DNA from: Verrucomicrobiota bacterium
GTDB lineage: Bacteria; Verrucomicrobiota; Verrucomicrobiia; Limisphaerales; AV2
Assembly (NCBI GenBank): GCA_003219345.1
Contig: QHOP01000093.1
Location: forward strand, 1-37,688
DNA: 37,688 bases
Direction of reading: 5' to 3'
The translations under genes were made by a program, and so were the position numbers. The notes below the pieces were generated by a model. It worked only from the letters and a program-made list of their open reading frames with translations, ran no database searches and was not told where the DNA came from. Positions 2,421 through 14,544 of the stretch are shown piece after piece (the stretch's first letter is position 1; each line of letters opens with the position of its first letter).

Positions 2421-2670
2421 GTCCGACATGAAAACTTTCACGGTCAGGGAACTGGATCGCGAGCCGGCGGCGGTGCTGGATGCGGCGGATAAAGACGGCG
2501 TGGTGCGCATTAAGCGTCGCGATGGGCGGCTCTATTCTTTGCAACCGGTGGCGGCGCCGCGCAAAATCACGTCGCTGCCTGACTTCGCGGCCCGGCGCAA
2601 AGCCATTTTCCCCAGGACCATTCCGGCGTCTCGAGTCCGGTTGGCGGACAAACTCATCGCCGGCGAATGA
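2419..2670 (+). CDS. Type II antitoxin (VapB/Phd-YefM-like)
   Basis: 83-aa product MSDMKTFTVRELDREPAAVLDAADKDGVVRIKRRDG. Its stop overlaps the PIN toxin start by 4 nt (ATGA at 2667). Confidence 0.7.
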   Translation: MSDMKTFTVRELDREPAAVLDAADKDGVVRIKRRDGRLYSLQPVAAPRKITSLPDFAARRKAIFPRTIPASRVRLADKLIAGE

Positions 2671-3134: not shown

Positions 3135-3138
3135 ATCA

Positions 3139-4431
3139 ATGAAACTCCTGGTCATCGGTTCGGGCGGACGCGAACACGCGTTGGTCTGGAAACTGGCGCA
3201 GTCGCCGCACGTCACTCGCATGTGGTGCGCGCCGGGGAACGCGGGGATTCAACAGGAGCAAACAGAGAAAACGAAGAGGCCTGTCGAGTGTGTGAATGTC
3301 GGCGCGGAGGATTTGCCTGGGCTGCTCGCGTTCGCGCAGGAGAAAAAACCCGATCTCACCGTCGTAGGACCGGATAATCCGCTCGCGCTGGGCATCGTGG
3401 ATTTATTTCAGCGGAACGGTCTGCGGGTTTGGGGAGCCAATCGGAAGGCGGCGCAGTTCGAGTCGTCCAAAGCTTTTTCCCAGCGGTTCATGGAGAAATA
3501 TGGCATCCCGACGGCGCGTTCGGGAACTTTCAGCGAGCCGGCAGCGGCCAGGAAGTTTGCGGCGTCGCTCGGCGGGCGCTGCGCGGTGAAGGCCGACGGC
3601 CTGGCGCTCGGCAAAGGCGTGTTGCTCACCACCAATTTAGCTGAGGCGGAGAAGGCCATCGACGAAATCATGGTTGGCAAAGTGTTTGGCGCTGCGGGCA
3701 CGAAAATCGTCATCCAGGAATTTCTCGAAGGCATGGAAATCTCTTTGCACGCGCTGTGTGACGGCAAAGTGGCGAAACTTTTTCCGACGGCGCAGGACCA
3801 CAAGCGTGCGCTGGACAATAACGAGGGATTGAACACCGGGGGCATGGGCGCGTATTCGCCCACGCCGTTCTTGACGGACGCGCAACTCGTTGACGTCGCC
3901 AAGATGATTCTCGACCCATTCCTGCGCGGTTGCACGGAGGAGGGGATTGATTTCCGCGGCATTATTTATCCGGGAGTGATGCTGACGAAGGACGAGCCGA
4001 AGGTGCTGGAGTTCAACGCACGTTTTGGCGACCCGGAAACGCAGGTCTATCTTACGCGGCTGGAAAACGACTTCGTCGAATTGCTCGATGCGAGCGTCAA
4101 CGGCACGCTCGGCACAATGGAATTGAAATGGAGTCCGCTGGCGTCGGTCTGCGTGGTGATGGCCTCAGGCGGTTATCCCGGCAGCTACGCGAAGGGCAAA
4201 CCGATTCACGGCCTGGATGGCGCAGCGCGGCTGCCGAACGTTAAAGTGTTCCACGCAGGCACAGCGCGGGCGGGTGAGCAAATCGTGACGAGCGGGGGTC
4301 GTGTGCTCGGAGTAACGGCGTGGGCGAAGGATTTACAGGCGGCGCAGTCAGCCGCCTACGCGGTAGTGGAGCGGATTAAGTTCGAAGGGGCTCATTTCCG
4401 CCGCGATATCGCCGCCAAAGCGCTGGGCTGA
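3139..4431 (+). CDS. purD: Phosphoribosylamine-glycine ligase
   Basis: MKLLVIGSGGREHALVWKLAQSP..., ATP-grasp core GLALGKGV, EFNARFGDPETQ, C-terminal GGRVLGVTA. ATG at 3139 is chosen over the 2962 ORF start, which overlaps vapC. Confidence 0.95.
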   Translation: MKLLVIGSGGREHALVWKLAQSPHVTRMWCAPGNAGIQQEQTEKTKRPVECVNVGAEDLPGLLAFAQEKKPDLTVVGPDNPLALGIVDLFQRNGLRVWGANRKAAQFESSKAFSQRFMEKYGIPTARSGTFSEPAAARKFAASLGGRCAVKADGLALGKGVLLTTNLAEAEKAIDEIMVGKVFGAAGTKIVIQEFLEGMEISLHALCDGKVAKLFPTAQDHKRALDNNEGLNTGGMGAYSPTPFLTDAQLVDVAKMILDPFLRGCTEEGIDFRGIIYPGVMLTKDEPKVLEFNARFGDPETQVYLTRLENDFVELLDASVNGTLGTMELKWSPLASVCVVMASGGYPGSYAKGKPIHGLDGAARLPNVKVFHAGTARAGEQIVTSGGRVLGVTAWAKDLQAAQSAAYAVVERIKFEGAHFRRDIAAKALG

Positions 4432-4432
4432 G

Positions 4433-5179
4433 TCATTGGCCCGCGGACTGCGGACTCGTATGCTGCTTTTCCCAGGCGTCGAAATTTCCATCATCTGACG
4501 TTGCCTCGACGATGCGTCCATCCCCATACGCATAAAGCCGCGCCCACTTCCCGTCCGGCTTGCGGTGCTCCTCCGGGTCGCGCAAGAGCAAAGCATTGGC
4601 TGGAACAACGATTTCTGGCCTATCTGAGACAAGCTGAAAGAGACGCAGTCCGAGCATGGATTCTCCCGCGGAGGTAGAGAAATAGTTTCTTAGTTGAAGC
4701 AAGTCGGTGGGGGTTTGATTGGTGTGATCGCTTGCGAACCTTTGCAACGCCTGCGGTAATTGAAGGCAAATGTTTCTCATGGCTTCCCGTTTCTCCGTCA
4801 GGAGCCCCTGCTGGAGTTCTCCCGGCGACATCGTGGTCGGCTGGTTTTGTGTCGTGTTCAACCGGGCCTCGAGCCGGCGATTTTCCTCCCGCAACAGTTG
4901 AGTCGCGTTTGTTTGCCGGCGAAGCATCCCCACTTCCCCCCGCAGTCTCATCAATTCCCTGAACTGTTCGTCGGAGAACGCTGCTTTCGCCTGGGCGACA
5001 AGGTTCGACAGGCGCCGGTTCTCCGCCGTTGACTCTGCCAGTCGGTCGGTTTGCTGCCGTAGAGCCGCGCGCTTTTCGCGCAATCCGGCCCTGGCATCGC
5101 GTTGGACCACCACCGGCGTCGCGAGGCTGGCCAAAATCACCGCGCTGACGATGCCGAGTTTGACCGGTATCATGTTCAT
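4433..5179 (-). CDS. Membrane-anchored coiled-coil protein with a type-A C-terminal domain; partner of the upstream ECF sigma fusion
   Basis: Start MNMIPVKLGIVSAVILASLATPVVV (N-terminal anchor). Heptad-rich LRQQTDRLAESTAENRRLSNLVAQ...LRGEVGMLRRQTN. C-terminus ...KWARLYAYGDGRIVEATSDDGNFDAWEKQH is paralogous to the C-terminus of 5176..6612. Its ATG overlaps the upstream stop (ATGA at 5176-5179). Confidence 0.75.
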   Translation of the reverse strand: MNMIPVKLGIVSAVILASLATPVVVQRDARAGLREKRAALRQQTDRLAESTAENRRLSNLVAQAKAAFSDEQFRELMRLRGEVGMLRRQTNATQLLREENRRLEARLNTTQNQPTTMSPGELQQGLLTEKREAMRNICLQLPQALQRFASDHTNQTPTDLLQLRNYFSTSAGESMLGLRLFQLVSDRPEIVVPANALLLRDPEEHRKPDGKWARLYAYGDGRIVEATSDDGNFDAWEKQHTSPQSAGQ

Positions 5180-6612
5180 TGGTTTGCCGGCGTGGCCGCA
5201 TGCTCTTTCTCCCACGCGTCGAAGTTTCCATCCGCTGAACTGTGGGTCTGGGAAGCGCCATCGGCAAAACCATAGACCCTTGACCAGGTGCCGTCCGGCC
5301 ATTGGTAGGCCTGCTTTTCCCGCAGCACAATGACGTTTCCCGCATTCGTAAGCGCATTTCGCGATCCTCGATAAACGATTTCGAACTGGTTGGTCACTTG
5401 AGTAAACTGAGCCAAATCGTCCAGAACCGGATCAGCGTTGAACGCCTCCGCGAAATAGCGGGCCGCCTGATCAAAACTCGCGGGAAACTGATCTTGGTTG
5501 TCCAAGGAATAAAGGAGAAACGCGAAGAGAAAATCCTTGGCGACACGCGCTCTAGCGACGACTTCCTCTTTTAACTGCAAGGGTGTTTTCGCTTGATCCG
5601 ACTGCTGTGCATTCTGCTCCCGCAGCCTGCGATTTTCCTCCTGCAACGCGGCCAGATCATTTGTCTGTTGCCGCAGCATCGCCGCTTCGTCGCGAAGTCT
5701 CAGCAGTTCGCTTGAGCGATCGTCCGCGCCTGGGGCCTGCGCCAGCAGATTGGACAGCCGCTCGCGCTCGCTCTGCAATCGAGCCAGCTCATCCGCCTGC
5801 TGCCGGGACGATGCGTCCGCTGCGCGCATCCTGGCCTGGGCTTGATGTTGAATCACCAAAGTCGTCGCCACGCTGGCAGCGGCGATGGCGCCGATAATGC
5901 CGGTTTTGAGTTTGGTCGCGGTCATGAATTTCAAGAGAGTGAGTGTCGTTCCGCCGGCAGCGGCGCCGCCGGCGATTGATCCGCCGGTGAGTGTCGCGAC
6001 AAAGGCGGTCGGAGCGGCAGTAGTGGCATTGCCCGTGAGTGCCAGAGCCAGGGCTGTCGCTGTCGAGGTCACGCCTTTACGCGCGAGTTGGGCGCGCAGT
6101 TTTTCCAGCGCGCGCTCCACGCGCATTCGCGCCGCGTTCTCGCTCAGTCCCAACCTGGCGCCCACTTCCTTAAGGCTTTGGTTCTGGAAATAGCGGAGCA
6201 ACACAGCGACGCGGTCCTTTTCGCCGAGTCTGTGCATGGCTTCGTCCAGCACGGGAAGGAGGTCGTCCCAGGCCGGCTCGGATGCGGGATTGCGGAGGAG
6301 TTCATTCATGGAATTGGCCTCCTGTTCGCGCGCCTTCCGCCGTTGTTCCGTGCGATTGGCGCGCAGCGCTACCAGGCGCGTCGTCGTGTAGAGCCAGCCG
6401 GCCAGCGCGGGATGGTTCCTGAGGCGTCGCGCCTGCCGGGCGAGCTCAGTGAAGACTTGCTGCGTCACGTCCTGGGCGCGATGGATGTCGCCGCCTGCCA
6501 GTCGCAACGCGGCGGAATAGACAAGGTCCACGTGCCGCCGAATCAGTTCGGTGAAGGCGGATTCCGACCGCTCGGAGGCGTACCGGCCCAACAATTCAGC
6601 GTCTTCACTCAT
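5176..6612 (-). CDS. ECF sigma factor fused to a hydrophobic anchor, coiled coil and type-A C-terminal domain
   Basis: Sigma70 region 2 (FTELIRRHVDLVYSAALRL...DVTQQVF...AGWLYTTTRL). Region 4 (LLRYFQNQSLKEVGARLGLSENAARMRVERALEKLR). Then TATKLKTGIIGAIAAASVATTLVI, the coiled coil LARLQSERERLSNLLAQ...LRDEAAMLRQQTNDLAALQEENRRLREQ, and ...WSRVYGFADGASQTHSSADGNFDAWEKEH. Confidence 0.9.
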   Translation of the reverse strand: MSEDAELLGRYASERSESAFTELIRRHVDLVYSAALRLAGGDIHRAQDVTQQVFTELARQARRLRNHPALAGWLYTTTRLVALRANRTEQRRKAREQEANSMNELLRNPASEPAWDDLLPVLDEAMHRLGEKDRVAVLLRYFQNQSLKEVGARLGLSENAARMRVERALEKLRAQLARKGVTSTATALALALTGNATTAAPTAFVATLTGGSIAGGAAAGGTTLTLLKFMTATKLKTGIIGAIAAASVATTLVIQHQAQARMRAADASSRQQADELARLQSERERLSNLLAQAPGADDRSSELLRLRDEAAMLRQQTNDLAALQEENRRLREQNAQQSDQAKTPLQLKEEVVARARVAKDFLFAFLLYSLDNQDQFPASFDQAARYFAEAFNADPVLDDLAQFTQVTNQFEIVYRGSRNALTNAGNVIVLREKQAYQWPDGTWSRVYGFADGASQTHSSADGNFDAWEKEHAATPANQ

Positions 6613-6625
6613 CGCGTCTCATTAG

Positions 6626-6655
6626 TTAATGCCCGCGGGACGTGAAAATCGCACT
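6626..6655 (-). promoter_or_regulatory. Conserved upstream element of the sigma array (copy for 5176..6612)
   Basis: Minus-strand AGTGCGATTTT, 18-nt spacer, CATTAA. The -10-like hexamer ends 13 nt before the ATG. See the motif finding. Confidence 0.3.
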
Positions 6656-6801
6656 GGAAAATTTTTGGTGTTTATCGCGCGGAATGGCACGACGCGGGGG
6701 CGAAGGGATTTTCGGAGCGCGCGCGATACGGGCAGCCATCGGAAAAATTCATTTCCGCCGACGCGCATTTCCGCGCTACAATGCGCCAAGGATGCGACGG
6801 C

Positions 6802-7445
6802 TTATTGCCGGGCGGGTGTCGAAATGATGTGTTCTGCCTCCCAGGCCTTAAAGTCGTCGTCCGACTCAATAATCTGCGAGCTTCCGTCAGCCATGCAGTA
6901 AACGCGCGCCTGCTTTCCACTGGGTGCAATAAAAGTTTGCCGGTCGCGAATTACGGCCACTGCGCCTCGTGGAATGCCTTTCAGTTCGTTGAGCGATCCA
7001 CGATAGACGATGTCAAATTGGTTTGTGCCGCTCAGCGGATAGTCGCGCAGATACTTGGCGACCTGATCCAGGCTTGAGGGGAAACGGTCTTGATGGTCCA
7101 AGGCATACATGCCGAATGCGAGGCCGAGATTCCGGGCATCGATGGGCCCTGGCGATTGCTTTTAAGTTGGGCTGCCAGTTCGTTGGTTTGTTTTTGCAGC
7201 ATCTCCGCCCGACTGCGCAGTTTGGCCAGTTCGTTCCACTGGCTGTTCGTCGAGCTCTTCGCCTCAGCGATCCGATTGGAAAGCTGTTCTCCTTCTGCGA
7301 TCAGCTCGGTCAGTTGCTTGTCTTGCCGGCGGAACACCCCATCGTTTTCGCGCATCTTCGCCTGGGAGTTGAGGTGGAGGATCAAGGTTATTGCCAGACC
7401 GATGGCGATAGTGGCGATGATTAGAGTGATTTTGAGTTTTTTCAT
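6802..7445 (-). pseudogene. Frameshifted type-A membrane-anchored coiled-coil partner gene
   Basis: ORF 7032..7445 gives the anchor and coiled coil (MKKLKITLIIATIAIGLAITLIL...LRSRAEMLQKQTNELAAQL). ORF 6802..7110, in another frame, gives the type-A domain (MYALDHQDRFPSSLDQVAKY...NQFDIVYRGS...ARVYCMADGSSQIIESDDDFKAWEAEH). Homology in the second frame extends upstream to a TAA at 7162-7164, so the shift lies in 7144-7161 (cgccagggccc). Confidence 0.75.
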
Positions 7446-7485
7446 AATTCGATTCCAATGAGACGTGAAGGTTCGACTTTCCCCG

Positions 7486-8988
7486 TCAGCGAGTTTTTAC
7501 CCACCGATTGGTCACCCTGCTATCAGCCATGCCCCCGTACGTCATGCCGATCGTGAAACGCAAATCCCACGTTTCATCCACTGGTGCTTTTTGCGTAATC
7601 ACCCACTCGTCCCCTTGCTGCAATTTGCTGACTAGGCTGTCTGCCTGCACAATCTCGTAACGTTCCAGAATGGCCTCATCTACGGGCGATCTAAAATAGG
7701 GTGACAGTTCTGAAAGTGCGCTCGGGAACTGGCCATTGTTGGCTTTGCTGTAATTGCGTAACGCGCCGGCCAGGATGTCGAGGACGCGCGATTCCGCATT
7801 TGCCCTGACGATACTCATGGCGCGGCGACATTCCTCGTCGCTGCTGAGGGTGTTCGGATAAATTGAGTCGATCCAATCCTGCTCGCCGAGAAACTGAAGT
7901 TCTGGAATTTTCCCGGCGGGATTTGCTTCCAGCCATTGCTTAAGATGATTTGCGCGCTCCGACCAGACTTCTTCTGCCGTTGCCAGCGCATTGCTTCCAG
8001 TCGCCGGATCTGAGGCCATCAGTCGCGTCAATTCCCGAACATCCCGGTTCAAACGACCGACTTGGCCCCGGAGTCGCAGCAGGTCGTTGTACTGGCCGCT
8101 GGGAAGTGATCTTGAACTGTTTGCCTCCGCGAGCAGGTTTGCGAGGCGCTCATTTTCTTTTTGAAGCTCAGCCAACCGGCCTGCTTGTCGTTGCAGCGCG
8201 CGGTCTTGTTCGGCCAGTTTCGTTTGAGCGCGGTGCTGAACCAACACCGGCGTTATTACGCTTGCAACGACGATCGCGGCGACCAGAAGTTTTTGTGTTG
8301 CAGTCATGGCGATGGTTTCGACGGTGGTCGCGATGGTTGTTCCGACAAGAGCGGCGGCAGTCGAAATGGTAACCGCCAGCCCAACCGGCGCGGCTTGGAC
8401 GGCATTGGCCGAGATGACGACGACCAGTCCGCTTGCGCCGATGGTGACGCCGCGTTTGGCGAAGAAGTCGCGCAGGCGTTCCACGGCGCGGCTGACGCGT
8501 TTTTGCGCAGCGTCTTCGCTCGTGCCGAGAGTTTGGGCCATCTCTCGCGCGGACATGCGTTCAAAGTAGCGCAGCAAAAGCGCGTCGCGGTCCGCCTCGC
8601 TCAGTTCGCCAATGGCGGCATCGAGGTGCGGGGCGATGTGTTCCCAGAGAGCGTTGGGTTCGGCGGAAAGCAGTTCGTTCATGGCGACGGCCTCCTGTTC
8701 GCGGGCGCGACGGCGCACATCGGTGCGGACGGTCTGCGCGGCGATGTTTTGCGCGGTGCGGTGCAGCCAACCGGACAGCACCGGACGATCCGCGAGTTGG
8801 GCGAAGTTTTTCGCGAGCGCGACGAACACGCCTTGAGTCACATCTTCCGCGAGGTGCGAATCACAAACCATCCGAAGCGCGGCGGAATAGACGAAATCGA
8901 CATGGCGGCGCACCAGTTCGGCGAACGCTGGTTCGGAGCGGTGTTCAGCGTAGGCGCGCAGCAGTTGTGAGTCGGTCTGGTCGTTCAC
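7486..8988 (-). CDS. ECF sigma factor fused to an anchor, coiled coil and type-B C-terminal domain
   Basis: GTG start. Region 2 FAELVRRHVDFVYSAALRM...DVTQGVF...SGWLHRTAQN. Region 4 LLRYFERMSAREMAQTLGTSEDAAQKRVSRAVERLR. Conserved SANAVQAAPVGLA, anchor LLVAAIVVASVITPVLV, coiled coil LAELQKENERLANLLAE...LRLRGQVGRLNRDV. Type-B domain IPELQFLGEQDWIDS...NNGQFPSALSELSPYF...ILERYEIV...EWVITQKAPV. Confidence 0.9.
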   Translation of the reverse strand: MNDQTDSQLLRAYAEHRSEPAFAELVRRHVDFVYSAALRMVCDSHLAEDVTQGVFVALAKNFAQLADRPVLSGWLHRTAQNIAAQTVRTDVRRRAREQEAVAMNELLSAEPNALWEHIAPHLDAAIGELSEADRDALLLRYFERMSAREMAQTLGTSEDAAQKRVSRAVERLRDFFAKRGVTIGASGLVVVISANAVQAAPVGLAVTISTAAALVGTTIATTVETIAMTATQKLLVAAIVVASVITPVLVQHRAQTKLAEQDRALQRQAGRLAELQKENERLANLLAEANSSRSLPSGQYNDLLRLRGQVGRLNRDVRELTRLMASDPATGSNALATAEEVWSERANHLKQWLEANPAGKIPELQFLGEQDWIDSIYPNTLSSDEECRRAMSIVRANAESRVLDILAGALRNYSKANNGQFPSALSELSPYFRSPVDEAILERYEIVQADSLVSKLQQGDEWVITQKAPVDETWDLRFTIGMTYGGMADSRVTNRWVKTR

Positions 8989-9035
8989 TCACCCAATAGT
9001 AGCCGCCGCCGCCCAAATCGGACAGGGAATGTAGC
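8809..9035. repeat. Direct repeat copy A: promoter region plus the first ~180 nt of sigma gene 7486..8988
   Basis: 8942-9035 matches 9724-9817 over 94 bp with no mismatch seen by eye. 8809-8868 matches 9664-9723 with one mismatch. 8869-8941 has no counterpart in copy B. Confidence 0.9.
8996..9024 (-). promoter_or_regulatory. Conserved upstream element of the sigma array (copy for 7486..8988)
   Basis: Minus-strand TGTCCGATTT, 17-nt spacer, TACTAT. The -10-like hexamer ends 7 nt before the GTG start. Confidence 0.3.
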
Positions 9036-9054
9036 GGTGGGAGAGCAACGGACC

Positions 9055-9345
9055 TTACTCGCGTTCCATTCCAAAACGTGGGTCGCGCCGGTGATGGCGC
9101 ACGAGCGTCACTCGGATTCCACCAGCTATTTCGCGATAGATAACGTGATACGGGAAGCGTCTGAGGTTTGCTCGATGGAACCCGGTCTTAATCAAGTGAA
9201 ATCTACTGGGCTTCGCTGCTGCCACGGCGATCAGCCGGCGCATCTCCACCTTGAACTCCTCCCCCAACCTCTGCGACAGCGCGTCGTAACGCCGCAGCGC
9301 CTCAGCCACATCCTGCTCGACGGCGGGATGGTATTCGACCCTCAC
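9055..9345 (-). CDS. ParE/RelE-family type II toxin
   Basis: 96 aa, MRVEYHPAVEQDVAEALRRYD...FHRANLRRFPYHVIYREIAGGIRVTLVRHHRRDP, the typical plasmid-stabilisation toxin pattern. 4-nt overlap with the upstream antitoxin. Confidence 0.8.
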   Translation of the reverse strand: MRVEYHPAVEQDVAEALRRYDALSQRLGEEFKVEMRRLIAVAAAKPSRFHLIKTGFHRANLRRFPYHVIYREIAGGIRVTLVRHHRRDPRFGMERE

Positions 9346-9572
9346 CGTTGGCGGCCGGTCTCGACTCGTCTCCAGAACTCGGCTTCCGGGAGCGGTTGAA
9401 CTTTGCCGCTTTCGATCTCACGTTCCCGCCGTTCCACTTCGGCCAGTTCCTCCGCTTCGGACCACGCCTCGCTCATCGGCGGCAGCGAACTCAACAGCGA
9501 CTCGGCCAGCAGGACTCGCTGCTCCACCGGCAAAGCGAGCACGGTCTTTTCGATTTCCTCAATCGCTGACAT
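9342..9572 (-). CDS. Addiction-module antitoxin (putative addiction module component family)
   Basis: 76 aa, MSAIEEIEKTVLALPVEQRVLLAESLLSSL...AWSEAEELAEVERREREIESGKVQPLP, the characteristic family pattern. Coupled to the toxin. Confidence 0.75.
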   Translation of the reverse strand: MSAIEEIEKTVLALPVEQRVLLAESLLSSLPPMSEAWSEAEELAEVERREREIESGKVQPLPEAEFWRRVETGRQR

Positions 9573-9663
9573 GCCGACAGGCTACGACCTACAGGGCGGG
9601 TTTGCAAGACCGGACGCGAGCTTGGCGTGATGGCGCTGGGCAGGGATTTAATGAGCGCACAAA

Positions 9664-9817
9664 TTTCGCGAGCGCGACGAACACGCCTTGAGTTACATCT
9701 TCCGCGAGGTGCGAATCACAAACTGTTCAGCGTAGGCGCGCAGCAGTTGTGAGTCGGTCTGGTCGTTCACTCACCCAATAGTAGCCGCCGCCGCCCAAAT
9801 CGGACAGGGAATGTAGC
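9664..9817. repeat. Direct repeat copy B: degenerate duplicate of the promoter and 5' end of the sigma gene, with a 73-bp internal deletion
   Basis: See copy A. It keeps the GTG (9767-9769) and would encode only MNDQTDSQLLRAYAEQFVIRTSRKM before a stop, so it is a gene remnant. Confidence 0.9.
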
Positions 9818-10730
9818 TTTGATGGCAAGAGCATGAATCGGAACTGGGTTGCGAAAGCCGGGGCCAAGGGACGGTATCCCACCGCCCGCCCTCCAGGCTT
9901 AAGGGGATAAGCCCGCGGAGACTAATGGCCGAGCGATGATCCAAGTCCCGATTCACCGGCGCTTTCTGGGTGATCACCCAATCTTCCCCGGAATCCACAC
10001 CGCTTTCGATGTTCAGGTTTTTCGCTGGGACGATTTCATAGCGTTCCAGTAATGCATCATCCATGGGCGAGGCGAAATAGGGTTTCAACTGCGAGAGATC
10101 GGCGGGGAATTGGCCATGATTGGCCTGGGCGTATTGCCGGAGCGCCTGGAATGCCGCTTTTGAAAACGCGAGTTCCCCCTGGGAGCGAAGGTGACTCATC
10201 GTTTGACGGTATTCGTCGTCCGTGACTGAGAGATTTTCGACAGAGTCAATCCAATTGAAGTCGGAAAGGAATTGCAGCTCCGGGATCATTTCCGACGGCG
10301 TGTCCTCCAGCCACTGCCTGAGCTGAGCAACGCGCGCCCGCCTCATTTCCATTTCGTCTACCAACGGAGCGGTGAGGTTGATGCTGGCGGCCAACTCTTC
10401 CATTTGCTGAAGCCCCTCGCGGATGCGGCGGACTTGGCGACGGAGCGGTTCCATTTCCTGGACGGCCTTGCGAAGTTGACCGACCTCGGCCCGCAGTTTC
10501 ATCAATTCACTGAGTGCTGCGTCGTCGAGCGAATGGGAACTCTTCACCTGAGCGACGTTATTCGACAGGCGTTGGTTCTCTGACGACAATTGCTCCAACA
10601 GAACAGCCTGCTGCTGCAACGTCAATCTCTTCGAAACCAAAAGGCCTTCCGCCCGCTTTTGAATCAGCCACGGCAACACCAAGACCGCGGCTAGAATCGT
10701 GCCCAGTATGCCAAATCTCAGCTTTTTCAT
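9771..10730 (-). CDS. Membrane-anchored coiled-coil protein with a type-B C-terminal domain; partner of the upstream ECF sigma fusion
   Basis: MKKLRFGILGTILAAVLVLPWLI anchor. Coiled coil LLEQLSSENQRLSNNVAQ...LRAEVGQLRKAVQEME. Type-B domain IPELQFLSDFNWIDS...NHGQFPADLSQLKPYF...LLERYEIV...DWVITQKAPV. ATG overlaps the upstream stop (TAATG at 10728-10732). The last 16 codons are encoded by repeat copy B and the ~40-aa tail looks like read-through. Confidence 0.7.
   Translation of the reverse strand: MKKLRFGILGTILAAVLVLPWLIQKRAEGLLVSKRLTLQQQAVLLEQLSSENQRLSNNVAQVKSSHSLDDAALSELMKLRAEVGQLRKAVQEMEPLRRQVRRIREGLQQMEELAASINLTAPLVDEMEMRRARVAQLRQWLEDTPSEMIPELQFLSDFNWIDSVENLSVTDDEYRQTMSHLRSQGELAFSKAAFQALRQYAQANHGQFPADLSQLKPYFASPMDDALLERYEIVPAKNLNIESGVDSGEDWVITQKAPVNRDLDHRSAISLRGLIPLSLEGGRWDTVPWPRLSQPSSDSCSCHQSYIPCPIWAAAATIG
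9778..9806 (-). promoter_or_regulatory. Duplicated copy of the sigma upstream element, now upstream of the TA cassette
   Basis: Identical to 8996-9024 because it lies inside repeat copy B. Confidence 0.3.
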
Positions 10731-12082
10731 TATTTCGATGCCTCAGGTGGGACGATCCGCCGTTTTTCCCAGGCGTCAAAATTGCCATCGGCCTCGCTAT
10801 GTTGCATGCCGATGCCGCCAAGCATGGTGTATACCTTCACCCACTTGCCGTCGGTGTTTTTCCACGGATGCTTTTGCCTGATCAGGATGATGTCGTTCGG
10901 ATGAGCATACTTGTCGGGAGCGGGCAGCGGCCCCTGGAAAACGATTTCAAATTGGTCGGGAGAAAAATTGGCAAAATTGGTTCGGTTCCCGTACTCGGTG
11001 GACATGATGCCGGCCACCTGCGCGAGGTTGGTGGGAAACTGGCGGTGTTGACTGGCGTACCCGCGCGTCACACCACCGAGTCTCATGCAATAATCCGTTC
11101 TGGCGTTAAGCTCGGGACTGTCCACGGTTTGCTGGTCCTGGGGGCCGTGCAGGTCTTCGCGGAACCTGGTTCGCGCCCGGTTCAGTGACGCCTGGAGTTG
11201 CCTGTCTTCTTCCCGTAACGCGGCCAGGTCGTTGTTTTGCTCTCGGAGCGCTGCCACTTCATCACGCAATCTTTGCAACTCTTCCCCAGTATTTACTGAC
11301 GGACGGCTTAGCAATGCAGCGAGACTTGAAAGCCGTTCGTGCTCCGCTTGCAGTGGCGCCGATGCAGCCACTTGTTGGCGCACCGTCCCGTCCGCCTCCC
11401 GGATTGTGGTTCCCGTCCCCGCAGCGGCGCTCGCAAGGGACGCAGCGGAAAGCGTTGCTGCCAATCCGACCGGCGCGGCCTGGCAGGCATTGGCCGCAAG
11501 CACCACGGAGAGCGCGGCAGCTGAAGTTGTGATTCCCCGTTGGGACAGCAAATCACGCAGTTTGTCGAGCGCGCGCGACACGCGCTTTTGCGCGGCGTCG
11601 TCGCTCACACCGAGCCCCAAACCCACGGATCGCAAATCCTGGTTTTTGAAGAAGCGCAGCACCAGCGCGTCGTAGTCCGATTCGCTCAATTCGGCCATGG
11701 CTTCGTCCAGCACCGGACGCAGGCGCTCCCAGTCAGATGTGGTGTCGGGCGTCGAGTCGAGGTTTTCCATAGCCTGCCTTTCGCGGGAATGCCGGCGGAA
11801 TTCATCGCGCCGGAGATTGAGCGAGATGTTGCGCGCACTGCGGCAAAGCCAGCCAGCGAGCGAACCGTTCCCGGCCAGCTTTGGGGACAAGGACCGCGCG
11901 CCGCGCGCCAGACCGATGAAGACACTTTGGGCGACCTCGGCGGCAATGTCCGGCGAATCCACCTGCCGCAAGGCGGCGGAATACACGAGGTTCGTGTGCC
12001 GGGCGACGATTTCCGCGAAGGCGGATTCCGCGCCGTTTTGCACGTATTCGCGGAGGAGTTGGGCGTCGGACTTTGGTTGCAT
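10730..12082 (-). CDS. ECF sigma factor fused to a coiled coil and type-A C-terminal domain, lacking the anchor helix seen in its paralogs
   Basis: Region 2 FAEIVARHTNLVYSAALRQ...AGWLCRSARN. Region 4 VLRFFKNQDLRSVGLGLGVSDDAAQKRVSRALDKLR. Coiled coil LQRLRDEVAALREQNNDLAALREEDRQLQ. C-terminus ...KWVKVYTMLGGIGMQHSEADGNFDAWEKRR. Confidence 0.9.
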   Translation of the reverse strand: MQPKSDAQLLREYVQNGAESAFAEIVARHTNLVYSAALRQVDSPDIAAEVAQSVFIGLARGARSLSPKLAGNGSLAGWLCRSARNISLNLRRDEFRRHSRERQAMENLDSTPDTTSDWERLRPVLDEAMAELSESDYDALVLRFFKNQDLRSVGLGLGVSDDAAQKRVSRALDKLRDLLSQRGITTSAAALSVVLAANACQAAPVGLAATLSAASLASAAAGTGTTIREADGTVRQQVAASAPLQAEHERLSSLAALLSRPSVNTGEELQRLRDEVAALREQNNDLAALREEDRQLQASLNRARTRFREDLHGPQDQQTVDSPELNARTDYCMRLGGVTRGYASQHRQFPTNLAQVAGIMSTEYGNRTNFANFSPDQFEIVFQGPLPAPDKYAHPNDIILIRQKHPWKNTDGKWVKVYTMLGGIGMQHSEADGNFDAWEKRRIVPPEASK

Positions 12083-12091
12083 CTCACTTAT

Positions 12092-12120
12092 TTAATAACC
12101 GTCCGCTGCAAAATCCGACA
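12092..12120 (-). promoter_or_regulatory. Conserved upstream element of the sigma array (copy for 10730..12082)
   Basis: Minus-strand TGTCGGATTTT, 17-nt spacer, TATTAA. The -10-like hexamer ends 9 nt before the ATG. Confidence 0.3.
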
Positions 12121-12169
12121 AAGCTTTTGTAGCGTCAGCGTCCTGTCTGACGTAGAGGGCGGCACGCCG

Positions 12170-13342
12170 TCATCCGCAGGAAGAAATGGTATCGCGTCTG
12201 AATCGTCGAAGCATTACCCAAAGCCAGATGACTACAAATGTCAGACCGCTCCCGAATACTCCCCAAAACAGCAGTAATGAAAGATGCGGCGGCACTTGGC
12301 GATTGGCGTGAGCGATCAACAGATGAACCCCGATCATGAAAATCGCCTCGAAACAGGCCAGCCAAAGCAGGTGTCGAAACAGAAAATCAAACGTAACTTC
12401 CCGTCGTTCCGGCGCGAGCCAGTAGTTGCGATTGGGTATTTTGATCGAGTTGACTGGCAGGAAGCGCACAAAATAGCCAAGCCCAATCAAGAGCAGTGGC
12501 AACCCGATGCCCAATGCCATTGAGAAAAAAAGGTAAGTGGAACGATCCATCCAAATGTCGGGGCGTCCCTCCAAATCAAAATGGGTGGCGACGACTTTCT
12601 GCGAAACAATTGCATTGGTTAGAATTGCCGCGGCGGTCGCTTTCAGTCCCGCAGTTCCTTTGGTTGCGGTTGCCGTGGACAGGGCGGTTGTTGCGGCAGT
12701 GATCGAAACTGAGGTAGCCAAGCCGACGGGGGCGGCCTGGACGGCATTGGCGGATAGGACGACGACGAGGCCGCTGGCTCCGACGGGGACGCCGCGTTTG
12801 GAGAAGAACTCACGCAGGCGTTCGACGGCGCGGCTAACGCGTTTTTGCGCGGCGTCTTCGGATGTTCCCAGGGTTTGTCCGACTTCGCGAAGGCTTTTGT
12901 TTTCGAAGTAGCGCAGGAGTACGGCGGTGCGGTCGGTTTCGTCGAGCGATTCCATCGCTTCGTCGAGCAGCGGTTCGATGTCAGCCCAGACGGGCTGGAA
13001 GCCTGTCCCACTGTCAGCCTGCAAATTCATCGCATTCATCTCGGTGGCAATTTGCTCGCGGAGCTGGCGTCGCGATTCCCGGCGGATTACGTCCACAGCA
13101 GTCCGGCGTGTGACCTGATAAAGCCACGCCGTCAGAACGGTGTCCGGTTTCAGCTTGTGAGCGTTTCGAGCGAGGTCGGCAAAGACCGATTGCGCGATTT
13201 CCTCGGCCAATGGCGGCGAGCGGACCTGGCGCAACGCCGCGGAATAGACCAAATTCAAATGGCGCCGGACCAGCGCTGCGAAAGCTTCCTCTGAGCGTTG
13301 TCGCGTGTATTGCTGTAATAAGTCCAAGTCGCTCGCTGTCAT
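12170..13342 (-). CDS. ECF sigma factor fused to a polytopic membrane domain (DUF1648-like)
   Basis: Region 2 FAALVRRHLNLVYSAALRQ...TAWLYQVTRR. Region 4 LLRYFENKSLREVGQTLGTSEDAAQKRVSRAVERLR. SANAVQAAPVGLA, then HFDLEGRPDIWMDRSTYLFFSMALGIGLPLLLIGLGYF... with about 4 hydrophobic helices. ATG at 13342; an alternative GTG lies at 13348. Confidence 0.85.
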   Translation of the reverse strand: MTASDLDLLQQYTRQRSEEAFAALVRRHLNLVYSAALRQVRSPPLAEEIAQSVFADLARNAHKLKPDTVLTAWLYQVTRRTAVDVIRRESRRQLREQIATEMNAMNLQADSGTGFQPVWADIEPLLDEAMESLDETDRTAVLLRYFENKSLREVGQTLGTSEDAAQKRVSRAVERLREFFSKRGVPVGASGLVVVLSANAVQAAPVGLATSVSITAATTALSTATATKGTAGLKATAAAILTNAIVSQKVVATHFDLEGRPDIWMDRSTYLFFSMALGIGLPLLLIGLGYFVRFLPVNSIKIPNRNYWLAPERREVTFDFLFRHLLWLACFEAIFMIGVHLLIAHANRQVPPHLSLLLFWGVFGSGLTFVVIWLWVMLRRFRRDTISSCG

Positions 13343-13351
13343 CTTCACAAG

Positions 13352-13381
13352 TGTATCGCCACAGACGCTGAAAATCCGACA
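13352..13381 (-). promoter_or_regulatory. Conserved upstream element of the sigma array (copy for 12170..13342)
   Basis: Minus-strand TGTCGGATTTT, 18-nt spacer, GATACA. The -10-like hexamer ends 9 nt before the ATG. Confidence 0.3.
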
Positions 13382-13464
13382 AGATTTGCTGAAACCGGGT
13401 AATATCGAGATGGGGTTGCTCGTGGCTTTACTTTCCCGCCTCGGTCGCGCAATTTGGAGCCGGC

Positions 13465-14544
13465 ATGAAACAAAGCGGGTTTAACCTGTGGCTGGCGGGG
13501 TGGCTGATCTTTGGGGCAATTCAGTCGGGCATTGGCGCGGAGACCAATGCGCTACCGCATTTTCAGGAGGTGTTTCGCCTCCTACGTGCCAATCTGCCGA
13601 ACGCGAGCGAAGAGGAGTTGAACCAGGCAGCCGTGCAGGGGTTATTGAATCAATTTTATCCGCGAGTGATTCTTGTCACCAATGGGGCGCCGGCCGGCGT
13701 CCGTCCGGAAGGGTCGCTGTTGAGCAGGACGAGAGTGTACGATGACTCGTATGGATACCTGCGCGTGGCCAGGGTTGCGACCGGGCTGGCAGACGAGATT
13801 AAATCGGCTCACGACAGGCTCGACGCCACGAACAAGCTGAAAGGCGTGGTTCTGGATTTACGCTTCGCCGACGGCCAGGATTATACCGCGGCGGCGAACG
13901 CGGCGGACCGATTCTTAAGCAGGGAACAACCGCTTCTGGACTGGGACGAAGGTTCAATTCATTCGACCGGGAAAGCGGACGCGATCAACGTTCCGGTTGC
14001 AGTGCTCGTGAATCGACGAACGACTGGCGCGGCCGAGGCGCTGGCAGCGGCGCTGCGCGAAACAGACGCGGCGGTGTTGATCGGCTCGCGGACGGCGGGG
14101 CAGGCGCGGATTTTCAAAGAGTTCGATTTGTCGAACGGCCAGCGGCTGCGCGTTGCCACCGGTCAGGTCAGCGTCGGCAAAGGCAAACCGTTGTCCGCAA
14201 CGGGAGTCGCGCCGGACATAGAGGTCCTCGTCAGCGGCGAAGATGAAACGGCGTATTTTGTCGATGCGTTCAAAGTCTTATCCAGGCCTATCGCCCAGTT
14301 GAGAGTGACGAACAATGTTGCGCCGACCGCTTCGACAAACCGGGGGTCGCGGCGGCCCCGCAACGAGGCCGATCTCGTCCGGATGCAGCGCGAAGGTTTG
14401 AGTCCGGACGATCAAGATGCGCCAACACCTGCAGCCAAAACGGATGAGGATTCGCCGGAGCAGCTCGTGCGCGATCCGGCGCTGGCGCGGGCTCTCGATC
14501 TGTTGAAGGGCATCGCGATCGTGGAACGGTCGCTTCCGCGCTGA
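13465..14544 (+). CDS. Secreted S41 (C-terminal processing peptidase)-like protein, predicted catalytically inactive
   Basis: Signal peptide MKQSGFNLWLAGWLIFGAIQSGIGA. S41 core GVVLDLRFADGQ...VAVLVNRRTTGAAEALAAALRE...AVLIGSRTAGQA. Gly188 and Gln213 sit at the nucleophile Ser and general-base Lys positions. Confidence 0.7.
   Translation: MKQSGFNLWLAGWLIFGAIQSGIGAETNALPHFQEVFRLLRANLPNASEEELNQAAVQGLLNQFYPRVILVTNGAPAGVRPEGSLLSRTRVYDDSYGYLRVARVATGLADEIKSAHDRLDATNKLKGVVLDLRFADGQDYTAAANAADRFLSREQPLLDWDEGSIHSTGKADAINVPVAVLVNRRTTGAAEALAAALRETDAAVLIGSRTAGQARIFKEFDLSNGQRLRVATGQVSVGKGKPLSATGVAPDIEVLVSGEDETAYFVDAFKVLSRPIAQLRVTNNVAPTASTNRGSRRPRNEADLVRMQREGLSPDDQDAPTPAAKTDEDSPEQLVRDPALARALDLLKGIAIVERSLPR

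What the first reader, a model, noticed from the sequence alone, without database searches (positions are those of the whole stretch)
4433..13381. Tandem array of four extended ECF sigma factors, three coupled to free-standing paralogs of their own C-terminal extension
Seven co-oriented minus-strand genes form repeating units of sigma fusion then partner. The units are 12170-13342 (sigma only), 10730-12082 plus 9771-10730, 7486-8988 plus 6802-7445, and 5176-6612 plus 4433-5179. Each sigma has a canonical region 2/region 4 ECF core, then a conserved Ala-rich segment (SANAVQAAPVGLA or a variant), a hydrophobic anchor, a heptad coiled coil (LxxLxxENxRLxNLLAQ ... LRxxVxxLRxQxN) and a ~110-150 aa globular domain. 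The downstream gene repeats only the anchor, coiled coil and globular domain, and its start overlaps the sigma stop (ATGA at 5176-5179, TAATG at 10728-10732). No classical zinc-binding or RskA-type anti-sigma gene is present. A sigma covalently tethered to a membrane or extracytoplasmic module, plus a stoichiometrically co-translated paralog of that module, suggests regulation by coiled-coil hetero-oligomerisation. The partner could act as a decoy, co-sensor or release factor. I do not recognise this as a characterised ECF mechanism. Sigma cores 7486-8988 and 12170-13342 share very high nucleotide identity in the ~75-nt stretch 8446-8519 versus 12788-12861, so duplication or gene conversion is recent.
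Basis: partly seen in the sequence, partly recalled or inferred. Interest (0 to 1): 0.85.

Follow-up and report, generated by a model that had tools for sequence, protein, structure and literature searches.

The report
Membrane-tethered ECF sigma factors with partners
A soil Verrucomicrobium carries a row of alternative sigma factors, each fused to a membrane anchor, a stalk and an outward-facing domain, and most are followed by an unfused relative of that module; this sigma-plus-partner cassette recurs in many related genomes and probably forms a two-protein envelope sensor that has not been described for sigma factors.

Summary
Four minus-strand ECF sigma genes (S1-S4) carry C-terminal extensions. 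S2, S3 and S4 carry a stalk (coiled coil, plus a TM anchor in S3 and S4) and an alpha/beta head. P2, P3 and P4 are free-standing homologues of that module.

Corrections:
- P3 is frameshifted (82 nt missing relative to a 95%-identical relative).
- S2 has lost its TM anchor (38 aa).
- S1's extension is an unrelated DUF1648 membrane protein.
- A toxin-antitoxin cassette and a sigma remnant lie between P2 and S3.
- Partners are usually not copies of their own sigma's head. There are head types A, B and C, and pairs are mostly heterotypic.

The window is a whole contig of a Verrucomicrobia MAG. The module family is large (4,339 clusters at 50% identity), about half of them sigma-fused, with no Pfam, PDB-sequence or Foldseek match. 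The sigma-then-partner cassette, with overlapping stop and start, recurs in unrelated genomic contexts. A conserved promoter-like motif (TGTCGGATTT-N8-9-GCGGnT) precedes sigma genes only.

My best reading is a ToxR/ToxS-like "co-component" sensor with an ECF sigma as output, possibly activated by proteolytic release. That mechanism is inferred, not shown. I rate it a new variant of a known kind, of moderately high interest.

The parts
12170..13342 (-). S1: ECF sigma core plus Ala-rich linker, fused to a DUF1648-type multi-TM membrane protein. It has no coiled coil, no head and no partner.
   Evidence: Pfam r2/r4_2 and weak DUF1648. Hydrophobic segments at residues 270-381. Of 28 homologues of the C-terminal part, 26 are free-standing 161-231 aa proteins with a DUF1648 Pfam annotation. 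ATG at 13342 fits the orthologues' start.
13350..13385 (-). Conserved promoter-like motif upstream of S1 (TGTCGGATTTT...GGCGATAC)
   Evidence: PWM score 30.5. The motif was derived from 40 sigma-fusion upstream regions in many genomes.
10730..12082 (-). S2: ECF sigma, linker, coiled coil and head B. The TM anchor is deleted (38 aa) relative to the AV7 orthologue.
12089..12124 (-). Promoter-like motif upstream of S2
   Evidence: PWM score 34.8.
9771..10730 (-). P2: free-standing TM anchor, coiled coil and head A. Its start overlaps the S2 stop (TAATG). A 31-aa C-terminal tail, absent from the 286-288 aa orthologues, reads through the next sigma's promoter motif.
9664..9817 (-). Duplicated junction: P2 3' end, promoter motif (9775-9810) and the 5' remnant of a fifth sigma gene (S3'). 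That gene is full length in the relative L023.
   Evidence: tblastn remnants; 94-nt perfect and 60-nt 98% repeats; L023 comparison; PWM score 29.4.
9055..9572 (-). Inserted toxin-antitoxin pair: antitoxin 9342-9572 (Unstab_antitox) and a putative toxin 9055-9345 with a 4-nt overlap.
   Evidence: The toxin has no Pfam hit and is assigned by position only.
8993..9028 (-). Promoter-like motif upstream of S3, lying inside repeat copy 8942-9035
   Evidence: PWM score 29.4; repeat.
7486..8988 (-). S3: ECF sigma (GTG start), linker (8329-8472), TM anchor (8233-8295), coiled coil and head A (7489-7980). It is a hybrid relative to AV7: the 5' part matches L023 gene A and the 3' part matches gene B, with the crossover in sigma4/linker.
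6802..7445 (-). P3: TM anchor, coiled coil and head B partner, disrupted by a frameshift (82 nt missing at 7148|7147). It is intact in L023 as far as that contig reaches (226 aa, to the contig end).
6624..6659 (-). Weaker copy of the promoter-like motif upstream of S4
   Evidence: PWM score 10.7, against about 0.35 hits per shuffled window.
5176..6612 (-). S4: complete example. Sigma2 6337-6546, sigma4 6091-6249, Ala-rich linker 5947-6090, TM anchor 5845-5910, coiled coil 5599-5844, head B 5179-5550.
   Evidence: AF2 model of the head: pLDDT 88, pTM 0.82.
4433..5179 (-). P4: free-standing TM anchor, coiled coil and head B. Its ATG overlaps the S4 TGA (ATGA).
   Evidence: AF2 model of the full protein.
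13465..14544 (+). Divergently transcribed Peptidase_S41 protein with an N-terminal hydrophobic segment that I read as a signal sequence (no predictor run). It is a candidate accessory protease, not shown to belong to the system.
   Evidence: Pfam 3.9e-25. The same divergent adjacency to an S1-clade sigma fusion is seen in L008, L019, L020, L021, L036 and L037, and by overlapping coordinates in L015.

Best explanation
WHAT IT IS
The locus is a chromosomal array of single-promoter cassettes. Each cassette encodes an ECF sigma factor covalently tethered to the inner membrane, with the layout sigma2-sigma4, a conserved roughly 50-aa Ala/Gly/Thr-rich linker, one TM anchor, a helical stalk and a small alpha/beta head that faces the periplasm. 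In about a third of cases the cassette also encodes a translationally coupled, unfused member of the same anchor-stalk-head family, usually with a different head (types A, B or C).

HOW I THINK IT WORKS
- The fused protein and its partner pair through their homologous anchor and stalk. This would give a heterodimeric envelope sensor analogous to the 'co-component' ToxR/ToxS, TcpP/TcpH and VtrA/VtrC systems, with an ECF sigma in place of the winged-helix output domain.
- Signal state or partner occupancy would control whether the tethered sigma is cut free, by a periplasmic site-1 cut followed by intramembrane cleavage as for IutY. The free sigma would then drive its own promoter.
- On the evolutionary side, a mobile sigma-core-plus-linker module has repeatedly been joined to the N-terminal TM helix of pre-existing membrane proteins (stalk-head proteins, DUF1648). 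The conserved sigma4/linker DNA acts as the recombination point.

SHOWN VERSUS INFERRED
Shown here: the architecture, the homology, cassette conservation, the promoter motif and the module shuffling. Inferred: the topology, heterodimerisation, proteolytic release and which sigma reads the motif.

My confidence by layer is: architecture about 0.9, functional coupling of sigma and partner about 0.7, stalk heterodimer about 0.45, proteolytic release about 0.4.
For: SIGMA IDENTITY AND EXTENSIONS
- The sigma domains are confirmed by Pfam and NCBIfam.
- Extension and partner are homologous, and head families A and B are homologous (hhalign probability 99.9, E 1.5e-37).
- The anchor has a Kyte-Doolittle mean of 1.7-2.4. 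The linker averages only 1.0-1.3, below the 1.5 cut-off I used to call hydrophobic segments.

FAMILY SIZE
- The family has 4,339 clusters at 50% identity. Among the best 150, about 76 are free-standing and about 43 are full-length fusions.
- 68 loci were recovered from GTDB genomes, nearly all from Verrucomicrobiota.

CASSETTE CONSERVATION
- 24 of 66 fusions have a directly following partner at a gap of 0-44 nt in all but one case. Pair types are B+A 6, A+B 6, B+other 7 (six of these share head C), B+B 4, and one A+other that is the window's frameshifted S3/P3. There are no A+A pairs.
- P2 orthologues at 43-53% identity sit with a 4-nt overlap behind an S-B fusion in three unrelated neighbourhoods.
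- P-B sits behind a sigma in L077 and L078.

PROMOTER MOTIF
- The motif was found (two or fewer mismatches to the TGTCGGATTT core) upstream of 43 of 77 sigma genes scanned. In the window it occurs only upstream of S1, S2, the S3' remnant, S3 and S4, and never before a partner gene.

MODULE CAPTURE AND SWAPPING
- Homologues of S1's C-terminal part are almost all free-standing DUF1648 proteins.
- One sigma-core clade carries head A, head B, DUF1648 or other extensions.
- Window S3 is a core/extension hybrid of two AV7 genes, with the crossover in sigma4/linker.
- The highest paralogue nucleotide identity lies in that same segment.

PRECEDENTS
- IutY is released by Prc (S41 family, from my own knowledge) and RseP, and ECF52 SCO4117 is similar (PMC8999054).
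- ToxS stabilises ToxR against proteolysis, and co-component genes overlap (PMC9214523).
- ECF cores in Planctomycetes acquire unrelated C-terminal extensions (PMC7671368).
- An S41 peptidase is conserved next to S1-clade sigmas.
Against: - No interaction, cleavage or topology was tested. No multimer structure model could be run.
- 42 of 66 fusions lack a partner, and some partners are solo (L031, L053, L076, L079). The pairing is therefore not obligatory.
- In this window two of three units are damaged (S2 has no anchor, P3 is frameshifted). The local copies may be decaying, or the MAG assembly may be imperfect.
- The S41 peptidase accompanies only one sigma clade in one syntenic block. It is absent from the cassettes in other contexts.
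- The motif's downstream half resembles a housekeeping extended -10 element (TGnTATAAA) in one clade. Autoregulation by these ECFs is therefore not established.
- The stalk has low model confidence (block-mean pLDDT 55-69).
- Loci were collected through head-B or P-A matches, which biases the pair counts.
Confidence: 0.5

Rival explanations
1. Tethered and active. The sigma is never released. Like ToxR or CadC, the full-length membrane protein recruits RNA polymerase to promoters near the membrane, and the head with its partner modulates activity allosterically or through oligomerisation.
For: The architecture matches membrane-tethered one-component and co-component regulators (PMC9214523). 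The flexible linker of about 50 aa could give the sigma reach. No protease gene is consistently linked to the cassettes. Leaderless, self-contained operons would suit local action.
Against: A sigma must assemble into RNA polymerase holoenzyme. The characterised membrane-fused ECF (IutY), and by inference SCO4117, are reported to be activated by proteolytic processing (PMC8999054). I found no example of a membrane-bound active ECF in the papers read.
Confidence: 0.2
2. Evolutionary by-product without partner-dependent regulation. Anchor-stalk-head proteins are an independent envelope protein family that often sits in tandem. A promiscuous sigma-core-plus-linker module was inserted in front of some of them, as in the Pinto and da Fonseca model. 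On this view the neighbouring unfused copy is just the next family member, not a regulator of the sigma.
For: About half of the family is unfused. Solo partners exist with no sigma nearby. S1 shows capture of an unrelated DUF1648 protein. Core and extension phylogenies disagree. The array gains and loses members between 95%-identical genomes. The model has been published for Planctomycetes (PMC7671368).
Against: The specific S-B then P-A cassette with a 4-nt overlap is retained at 43-53% identity in three unrelated genomic contexts. Heterotypic pairing is non-random: there are no A+A pairs, and in this set head C was seen only in partners. Partner genes never carry the promoter motif. All of this indicates selection on the pair as a unit. 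This rival explains the origin and is compatible with a later regulatory role.
Confidence: 0.2
3. Fused minimal anti-sigma. The conserved Ala-rich linker, or the whole extension, is an in-cis inhibitory segment that occludes sigma2/sigma4 in the way a class I anti-sigma domain does. The partner is irrelevant to inhibition.
For: The linker is the most conserved non-sigma element and accompanies every extension type, including DUF1648. ECF48, ECF52 and ECF53 and IutY are interpreted as sigma/anti-sigma fusions (PMC8999054).
Against: There is no Pfam or NCBIfam hit to RskA, zf-HC2, FecR or another anti-sigma domain and no HxxxCxxC motif. From my own knowledge, a low-complexity A/G/T-rich segment of about 50 aa is much shorter than a class I anti-sigma domain of three to four helices.
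Confidence: 0.12
4. Artefact. The fusions and overlaps come from MAG mis-assembly or frameshift errors that merge a sigma gene with a downstream anti-sigma-like gene.
For: The window is a metagenome-assembled contig. It contains a frameshift, an in-frame deletion, a hybrid gene and a perfect 94-nt repeat, all at repeated sequence.
Against: More than 60 independent assemblies from different studies show the same uninterrupted sigma-linker-anchor-stalk-head ORFs, including complete chromosomes (L041, L047, L055).
Confidence: 0.03

Closest known systems
IutY of Pseudomonas putida (ECF243 sigma/anti-sigma hybrid) and ECF52 SCO4117 of Streptomyces coelicolor
   Same: An ECF sigma is covalently fused through a TM segment to an extracytoplasmic C-terminal region. 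No separate classical anti-sigma gene is present. Activation by proteolytic release (Prc, an S41-family protease from my own knowledge, plus RseP) is shown for IutY and inferred for SCO4117 (PMC8999054). An S41 peptidase neighbours one sigma clade here.
   Different: Those proteins carry a recognisable anti-sigma domain (FecR-like or zinc-finger) between sigma4 and the TM. Here there is only an Ala/Gly/Thr-rich linker with no such domain. The periplasmic part is an unrelated stalk-plus-head family with no Pfam or PDB match. A paralogous unfused partner is co-encoded. The organisms are Verrucomicrobiota, not Proteobacteria or Actinobacteria.
Co-component signal transduction systems (ToxR/ToxS, TcpP/TcpH, VtrA/VtrC)
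   Same: A cytoplasmic transcription module, one TM and a periplasmic domain are encoded upstream of an overlapping gene for a TM-anchored periplasmic partner. The cassette is fast-evolving and sits in variable genomic contexts. The partner is known to protect the regulator from proteolysis in ToxR/ToxS (PMC9214523).
   Different: The output domain is an ECF sigma factor, not a CadC-like winged helix. The partner is homologous to the regulator's own periplasmic part (same anchor and stalk), rather than an unrelated lipocalin-like protein. There is no sequence relationship to these families. Interaction is untested here.
Planctomycetes ECF sigma factors with duplicated cores and unrelated C-terminal extensions (Pinto and da Fonseca 2020, PMC7671368)
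   Same: Conserved sigma2/sigma4 cores are combined with different extensions. The extensions have non-sigma homologues elsewhere, and the core and extension trees disagree. Verrucomicrobia and Planctomycetes both belong to the PVC superphylum (from my own knowledge).
   Different: Here a conserved linker travels with the core. The junction is always at the N-terminal TM helix of a membrane protein. A likely crossover in sigma4/linker is caught between two 95%-identical genomes. A dominant extension family with a co-encoded partner is defined. Membership of the same ECF group could not be tested.
Canonical ECF sigma with a single-pass anti-sigma factor (RpoE/RseA, SigW/RsiW type)
   Same: The system has an ECF sigma and a downstream overlapping gene for a single-pass membrane protein, and a group-specific promoter motif lies upstream of the sigma gene. 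A response to an envelope signal is likely but inferred.
   Different: The downstream protein has no cytoplasmic anti-sigma domain at all (it starts at the TM helix), so it cannot sequester sigma in the classical way. The sigma itself carries the membrane anchor.

Membership tests
ECF (group 4) sigma-70 factors | Sigma2 and sigma4 domains present, with no sigma1.1 or sigma3 | tested here: met
   Pfam Sigma70_r2 (E 5e-14 to 1e-7) and Sigma70_r4/r4_2 above the gathering score in S1-S4. TIGR02937 scores 71-87 bits against a cut-off of 42.9.
ECF (group 4) sigma-70 factors | Assignment to a named ECF group (ECF classification 2.0 HMMs) | not testable with these tools
   No ECF-group HMM library is available, and the supplement of PMC7826278 is not held. 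The main text does not mention Verrucomicrobia.
ECF sigma fused to its anti-sigma factor (IutY/ECF243, ECF48/52/53) | A recognisable anti-sigma domain (FecR-like or ZAS HxxxCxxC) between sigma4 and the TM helix | tested here: not met
   No such Pfam or NCBIfam hit at E <= 0.1. No HxxxCxxC motif, and S4 has no cysteine at all.
ECF sigma fused to its anti-sigma factor (IutY/ECF243, ECF48/52/53) | TM segment and extracytoplasmic C-terminal region in the same polypeptide | tested here: met
   Hydropathy peaks of 1.7-2.2 in S3 and S4 and in the consensus of 52 fusions. Not met in window S2, where the anchor is deleted.
ECF sigma fused to its anti-sigma factor (IutY/ECF243, ECF48/52/53) | Activation by site-1 (Prc/S41) and site-2 (RseP) proteolysis | not testable with these tools
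   Only circumstantial: an S41 peptidase is conserved next to S1-clade sigmas.
Co-component systems (ToxR/ToxS, VtrA/VtrC) | Membrane-tethered transcription protein followed by an overlapping gene for a TM-anchored periplasmic partner | tested here: met
   ATGA and TAATG overlaps. 24 of 66 fusions have such a partner. 4-nt overlaps in L071, L072 and L074.
Co-component systems (ToxR/ToxS, VtrA/VtrC) | Homology to a CadC-like winged-helix domain or a VtrC/ToxS lipocalin-like domain | tested here: not met
   No such Pfam hits. Foldseek of the head model found nothing at E <= 1e-3.
Co-component systems (ToxR/ToxS, VtrA/VtrC) | Obligate periplasmic heterodimer | not testable with these tools
PVC-type ECF cores with captured C-terminal extensions (PMC7671368) | Similar cores, dissimilar extensions, and extensions with non-sigma homologues | tested here: met
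   Cores are 46-57% identical, while the extensions are DUF1648, head A or head B. Free-standing homologues of each extension exist. One core clade carries four extension types.
Type II secretion pseudopilin / H-X9-DG proteins (suggested by JGI names on some homologues) | Prepilin N-terminal methylation motif and pilin fold | tested here: not met
   No N_methyl, T2SSG or H-X9-DG hit in Pfam or NCBIfam. No G-F-T-L-I-E-type motif. No pilin among the Foldseek hits for a model with pLDDT 88. The names are seen only.
Type II toxin-antitoxin module (inserted cassette 9055-9572) | Antitoxin domain plus an overlapping small toxin gene | tested here: inconclusive
   The antitoxin matches PF09720 at 2.5e-10. 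The 96-aa downstream ORF overlaps it by 4 nt but has no Pfam hit.

The most novel reading that the evidence does not exclude
A previously undescribed signalling architecture that is abundant in soil Verrucomicrobiota. It would consist of heterodimeric 'stalked' envelope receptors built from a common TM-plus-coiled-coil stalk with interchangeable heads (A, B, C). One subunit carries an ECF sigma factor as a covalently attached, proteolytically releasable output. New receptors would arise by recombination at a conserved sigma4/linker joint. This would be a co-component system for sigma factors, with combinatorial head pairing setting signal specificity.
Probability: 0.35. Interest if true: 0.75.

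Novelty: new variant of a known kind. Interest (0 to 1): 0.62.

Why it matters
ECF sigma factors are described as the third main route of bacterial signal transduction (PMC3426412). In almost all characterised systems the membrane sensor is a separate anti-sigma factor (PMC8999054).

This family has thousands of sequence clusters, in a phylum I know to be abundant in soil but poorly studied, and it has three unusual properties:
- The sigma itself is the membrane protein.
- There is no recognisable anti-sigma domain.
- A homologous unfused subunit is co-encoded.

If the pair forms a heterodimeric sensor, the ToxR/ToxS-type 'co-component' logic extends to sigma factors. It would also give a simple, modular way to evolve new envelope sensors, with swappable heads and a recombination-prone joint.

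The promoter motif and the compact two-gene cassettes make the idea directly testable. Orthogonal ECF sigma factors are already used as building blocks for synthetic circuits (PMC6101570), so these cassettes could also be useful there. The head and stalk domains have no Pfam, PDB-sequence or Foldseek match, so they are candidates for new domain families.

Tried and rejected
1. Pseudopilin or H-X9-DG origin of the heads. This was suggested by the 'QFP' and 'ADG' motifs and by JGI names. Pfam, NCBIfam, PDB-sequence HMM and two Foldseek searches gave nothing significant, and there is no prepilin motif. Rejected as unsupported.
2. Recent tandem duplication. The cores are 46-57% identical and fall in four separate clades with orthologues elsewhere. 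Rejected.
3. 'Partner then sigma' as the true unit, because P2 resembles S3 and P3 resembles S4. The promoter motif precedes the sigmas only, and the S-then-P overlap is conserved in other genomes. Rejected. L002 does show a P-B directly upstream of an S-B.
4. Additional regulon targets. A PWM scan of the whole 37.7-kb window found the motif only upstream of the sigma genes.
5. First attempt to fetch related loci with the 18-sequence alignment failed because there was no conserved 7-10 column stretch. A 7-sequence subset worked.
6. ECF group assignment from the literature. The supplement is not held, and the main text is silent on Verrucomicrobia. The search for ECF01-Gob gave only passing mentions.
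7. The S41 peptidase as a general component. It is found only in one syntenic block with S1-clade sigmas and not in the other cassettes. Kept as a lead only.
8. Simple sigma-70 promoter and terminator scans of 4300-13600 were at background level.
9. The full-length AF2 model of P4 had too low confidence in the stalk (pLDDT about 55-69) to say whether the stalk is a hairpin or an extended coiled coil.

Full report
**Source and setting**

The window is a complete 37,688-bp contig of a metagenome-assembled Verrucomicrobia bacterium. P2 is 100% identical to a protein named 'DME22_04295' whose longest contig is 37,688 bp. The flanks are ordinary chromosomal genes:
- purD, a LMWPc-RpiB-SHMT fusion and rho
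- cytochrome c assembly genes, secA and a PHO4 transporter

G+C content is flat at 57-62%.

**Check of the observation**

ORF listing and domain scans confirm four minus-strand ECF sigma genes:
- S1, 12170-13342
- S2, 10730-12082
- S3, 7486-8988, with a GTG start
- S4, 5176-6612

Three downstream frames (P2 9771-10730, P3 6802-7445, P4 4433-5179) have no sigma domain. The stop/start overlaps ATGA (S4/P4) and TAATG (S2/P2) are real.

All-against-all BLAST shows that the partners are homologous to the sigma extensions, but there are two head types:
- Head A: the S3 extension and P2, 39% identity, E 4e-54.
- Head B: S2, S4, P3 and P4.

A profile comparison shows that A and B belong to one superfamily. 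They share the TM anchor, the helical stalk and the first 'QFP' helix of the head (hhalign probability 99.9, E 1.5e-37).

The corrections are as follows:
- **P3 is broken.** It is 644 nt long and split over two frames. It lacks 82 nt that are present in the 95%-identical MAG AV7.
- **S2 has no anchor.** It lacks exactly the 38 aa that form the TM anchor in its AV7 orthologue.
- **S1 is different.** Its extension is a DUF1648 multi-TM protein, and 26 of its 28 homologues are free-standing.
- **The P2-S3 gap is occupied.** The segment 8989-9770 holds an Unstab_antitox antitoxin, a putative toxin and the 5' stump of a fifth sigma gene, bracketed by a perfect 94-nt repeat.
- **The similar stretch is conserved sequence.**
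- **The array is old.** The cores overall are 46-57% identical and sit in four old clades, so it is not a recent duplication.

**Anatomy**

An alignment of 52 fusions gives this consensus from sigma4 to the stalk:

...AQKRVxRALEKLRxxLAKRGVT-xxAxALAxxLSANAVQAAPAGLAA...GTGTTLTLLKLMxxTKLK-[hydrophobic anchor]-QHQAQxKLR...

- The linker averages 1.0-1.3 on the Kyte-Doolittle scale, below the 1.5 cut-off I used to call hydrophobic segments.
- The anchor reaches 2.1.
- Partners begin at the anchor.

On this basis I infer a cytoplasmic sigma and linker, one TM helix, and a periplasmic stalk and head. No topology predictor was available.

AlphaFold gives a confident alpha/beta head B (pLDDT 88, pTM 0.82) but an unreliable stalk.

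Neither model, nor HMM searches of Pfam, NCBIfam and PDB sequences, finds any known relative. The pseudopilin names that JGI attaches to a few homologues are therefore not supported.

**Distribution**

- An exhaustive profile search finds 4,339 clusters at 50% identity, of which 612 have E <= 1e-30. Among the best 150, about half are free-standing proteins of roughly 240-250 aa and about half are sigma fusions.
- 68 loci were recovered from GTDB species representatives. Nearly all are Verrucomicrobiota such as Limisphaerales, Pedosphaera and 'subdivision 3'.

**Is the sigma-plus-partner unit real?**

I used my own HMMs for the core, linker, stalk and heads on stop-to-stop ORFs. Of 66 fusions with enough downstream sequence, 24 are followed directly by an unfused stalk protein. 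All but one have a gap of 0-44 nt, and several overlap. The pair types were:

| Sigma head | Partner head | Count |
|---|---|---|
| B | A | 6 |
| A | B | 6 |
| B | other (six of the seven share head C) | 7 |
| B | B | 4 |
| A | other (the window's frameshifted S3/P3, really A+B) | 1 |
| A | A | 0 |

Three further observations bear on this:
- Orthologues of P2 at 43-53% identity lie in three unrelated neighbourhoods (thiamine genes, aromatic amino-acid genes, a PAS/dCache sensor). Each overlaps the stop of an S-B fusion by 4 nt.
- Free-standing P-B proteins follow a sigma in two of four further contexts and are solo in two.
- L031 and L053 also have solo partners.

The cassette is therefore conserved and mobile. 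However, the partner is accessory, and it typically carries a different head from its sigma.

**Promoter**

A bipartite motif, TTGTCGGATTT-N8-9-GCGGnTnnTA, was found upstream of 43 of 77 sigma genes scanned (two or fewer mismatches to the core), across many genomes. In the sequences printed there it ends roughly 8-15 nt before the start codon.

In the window it occurs only upstream of S1, S2, the S3' remnant, S3 and (weakly) S4. It is never found before a partner gene or anywhere else in the 37.7 kb. This supports S-then-P operons, and the spacing suggests near-leaderless mRNAs.

Which sigma reads the motif is unknown. Autoregulation is typical of ECFs (PMC7826278), but in one clade the downstream half looks like an extended -10 element.

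**Module shuffling**

- The core tree places S1 with sigmas from other genomes that sit next to an S41 peptidase. Those sigmas carry head A, head B or other extensions.
- Compared with AV7, the window's S3 is a hybrid. Its promoter and core match one AV7 gene at 78-100% identity and its anchor, stalk and head match the next gene at 88-100%. The switch occurs at about 8345-8465, which is the sigma4/linker segment.
- AV7 also has an extra fusion between P4 and purD.
- This fits, and sharpens, the published idea that ECF cores in Planctomycetes pick up unrelated extensions (PMC7671368).
- As a caveat, these junctions lie in repeats of a MAG assembly and need read-level confirmation.

**Mechanism**

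The shown parts are the architecture, the homology, the cassette conservation, the motif and the shuffling.

The rest is inferred. A sigma tethered by one TM helix, with no anti-sigma domain and co-translated with a protein that shares its anchor and stalk but carries another head, most resembles the co-component regulators ToxR/ToxS and VtrA/VtrC (PMC9214523). In ToxR/ToxS the partner stabilises the regulator against proteolysis.

The characterised membrane-fused ECF IutY is activated by cleavage by Prc and RseP, and the same is inferred for SCO4117 (PMC8999054). Prc belongs to the S41 family (from my own knowledge).

I therefore favour a stalk-mediated heterodimeric sensor that gates proteolytic release of the sigma. 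The conserved divergent S41 peptidase next to S1-clade sigmas is a lead for a site-1 protease, but it is confined to one syntenic block.

The rivals, each weighed in the rival-explanations section, are:
- a never-released, ToxR-like active tether
- a purely evolutionary adjacency without regulation
- a linker acting as a minimal anti-sigma segment in cis
- an assembly artefact

**Verdict**

Membrane-fused ECFs, and extension swapping among ECF cores in Planctomycetes, are already known. The new elements are:
- the conserved stalk-head family
- its heterotypic co-encoded partner
- the common linker joint
- the promoter motif

I rate it a new variant of a known kind, with interest 0.62.

Noticed in passing
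window 9055-9572 (-), repeats 8942-9035 and 9724-9817: A toxin-antitoxin pair (Unstab_antitox antitoxin plus an overlapping 96-aa ORF) sits between P2 and S3. It is flanked by a perfect 94-nt direct repeat of the P2-end/promoter/sigma-start junction. A further 60-nt repeat (98%) lies at 8809-8868 and 9664-9723.
   Followed up: partly
window 7486-9035 vs L023 2400-6272: Window S3 is a hybrid of two adjacent sigma-A genes of the 95%-identical MAG AV7, with the crossover at about 8345-8465 in the sigma4/linker segment. This is either a recombinational deletion or an assembly join at a repeat.
   Followed up: yes
window ~11406 (S2) and 7147/7148 (P3): Relative to AV7, S2 has a clean 38-aa in-frame deletion that removes exactly the TM anchor, and P3 lacks 82 nt, which causes a frameshift. 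These could be real decay or MAG consensus artefacts.
   Followed up: yes
L003 2019-3905: The AV7 relative has an additional 629-aa sigma fusion (core, linker, weak stalk, other extension) between P4 and purD. It is absent from the window, so array content differs between genomes that are about 95% identical.
   Followed up: partly
window 13465-14544 (+): A Peptidase_S41 protein with no PDZ hit lies divergent to S1, and its N-terminus looks like a signal sequence. The same divergent pairing with an S1-clade sigma fusion recurs in L008, L019, L020, L021, L036 and L037, and by overlapping coordinates in L015. L079 has the S41 gene next to the SHMT fusion and a P-B gene.
   Followed up: partly
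window 14599-16770 (+): A single 723-aa ORF fuses a low-molecular-weight phosphotyrosine phosphatase, RpiB and serine hydroxymethyltransferase. The same triple fusion is called in L079 (727 aa).
   Followed up: no
L001 2521-3402, L013 8785-9603, L016 8495-9463, L034/L035 8675-9448, L051 8664-9401: A third head type ('C') occurs in this set only in partner proteins downstream of S-B fusions. Its consensus is W..DQL..G...PE.ALKT.LWA...GD ... F.GEG..R.F.L.K.G.EWK. The six proteins are 30-37% identical to each other across genomes (73% between the close pair L034/L035).
   Followed up: partly
window 9771-9866 (P2 C-terminus): P2 has a 31-aa tail that is absent from all 286-288 aa orthologues. The tail is the translation of the next sigma gene's promoter motif region, so the ancestral stop codon seems to have been lost.
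   Followed up: partly
window 32538-34754 (-): A 738-aa protein has a lysyl-oxidase domain (E 3e-37) and a pre-peptidase C-terminal (PPC) domain. I know lysyl oxidase mainly as an animal enzyme.
   Followed up: no
window 2667-3134 (+) and 2962-4431 (+): A weak PIN-domain ORF (E 7e-4, below the gathering score) lies just upstream of purD and overlaps its longest ORF. The purD start is probably the internal ATG (MKLLVIG...) rather than the TTG at 2962.
   Followed up: no
L002 10001-12206: One locus has the reverse order: a free-standing P-B is followed 74 nt later by an S-B fusion. The P-B start overlaps a DHFR gene's end.
   Followed up: no
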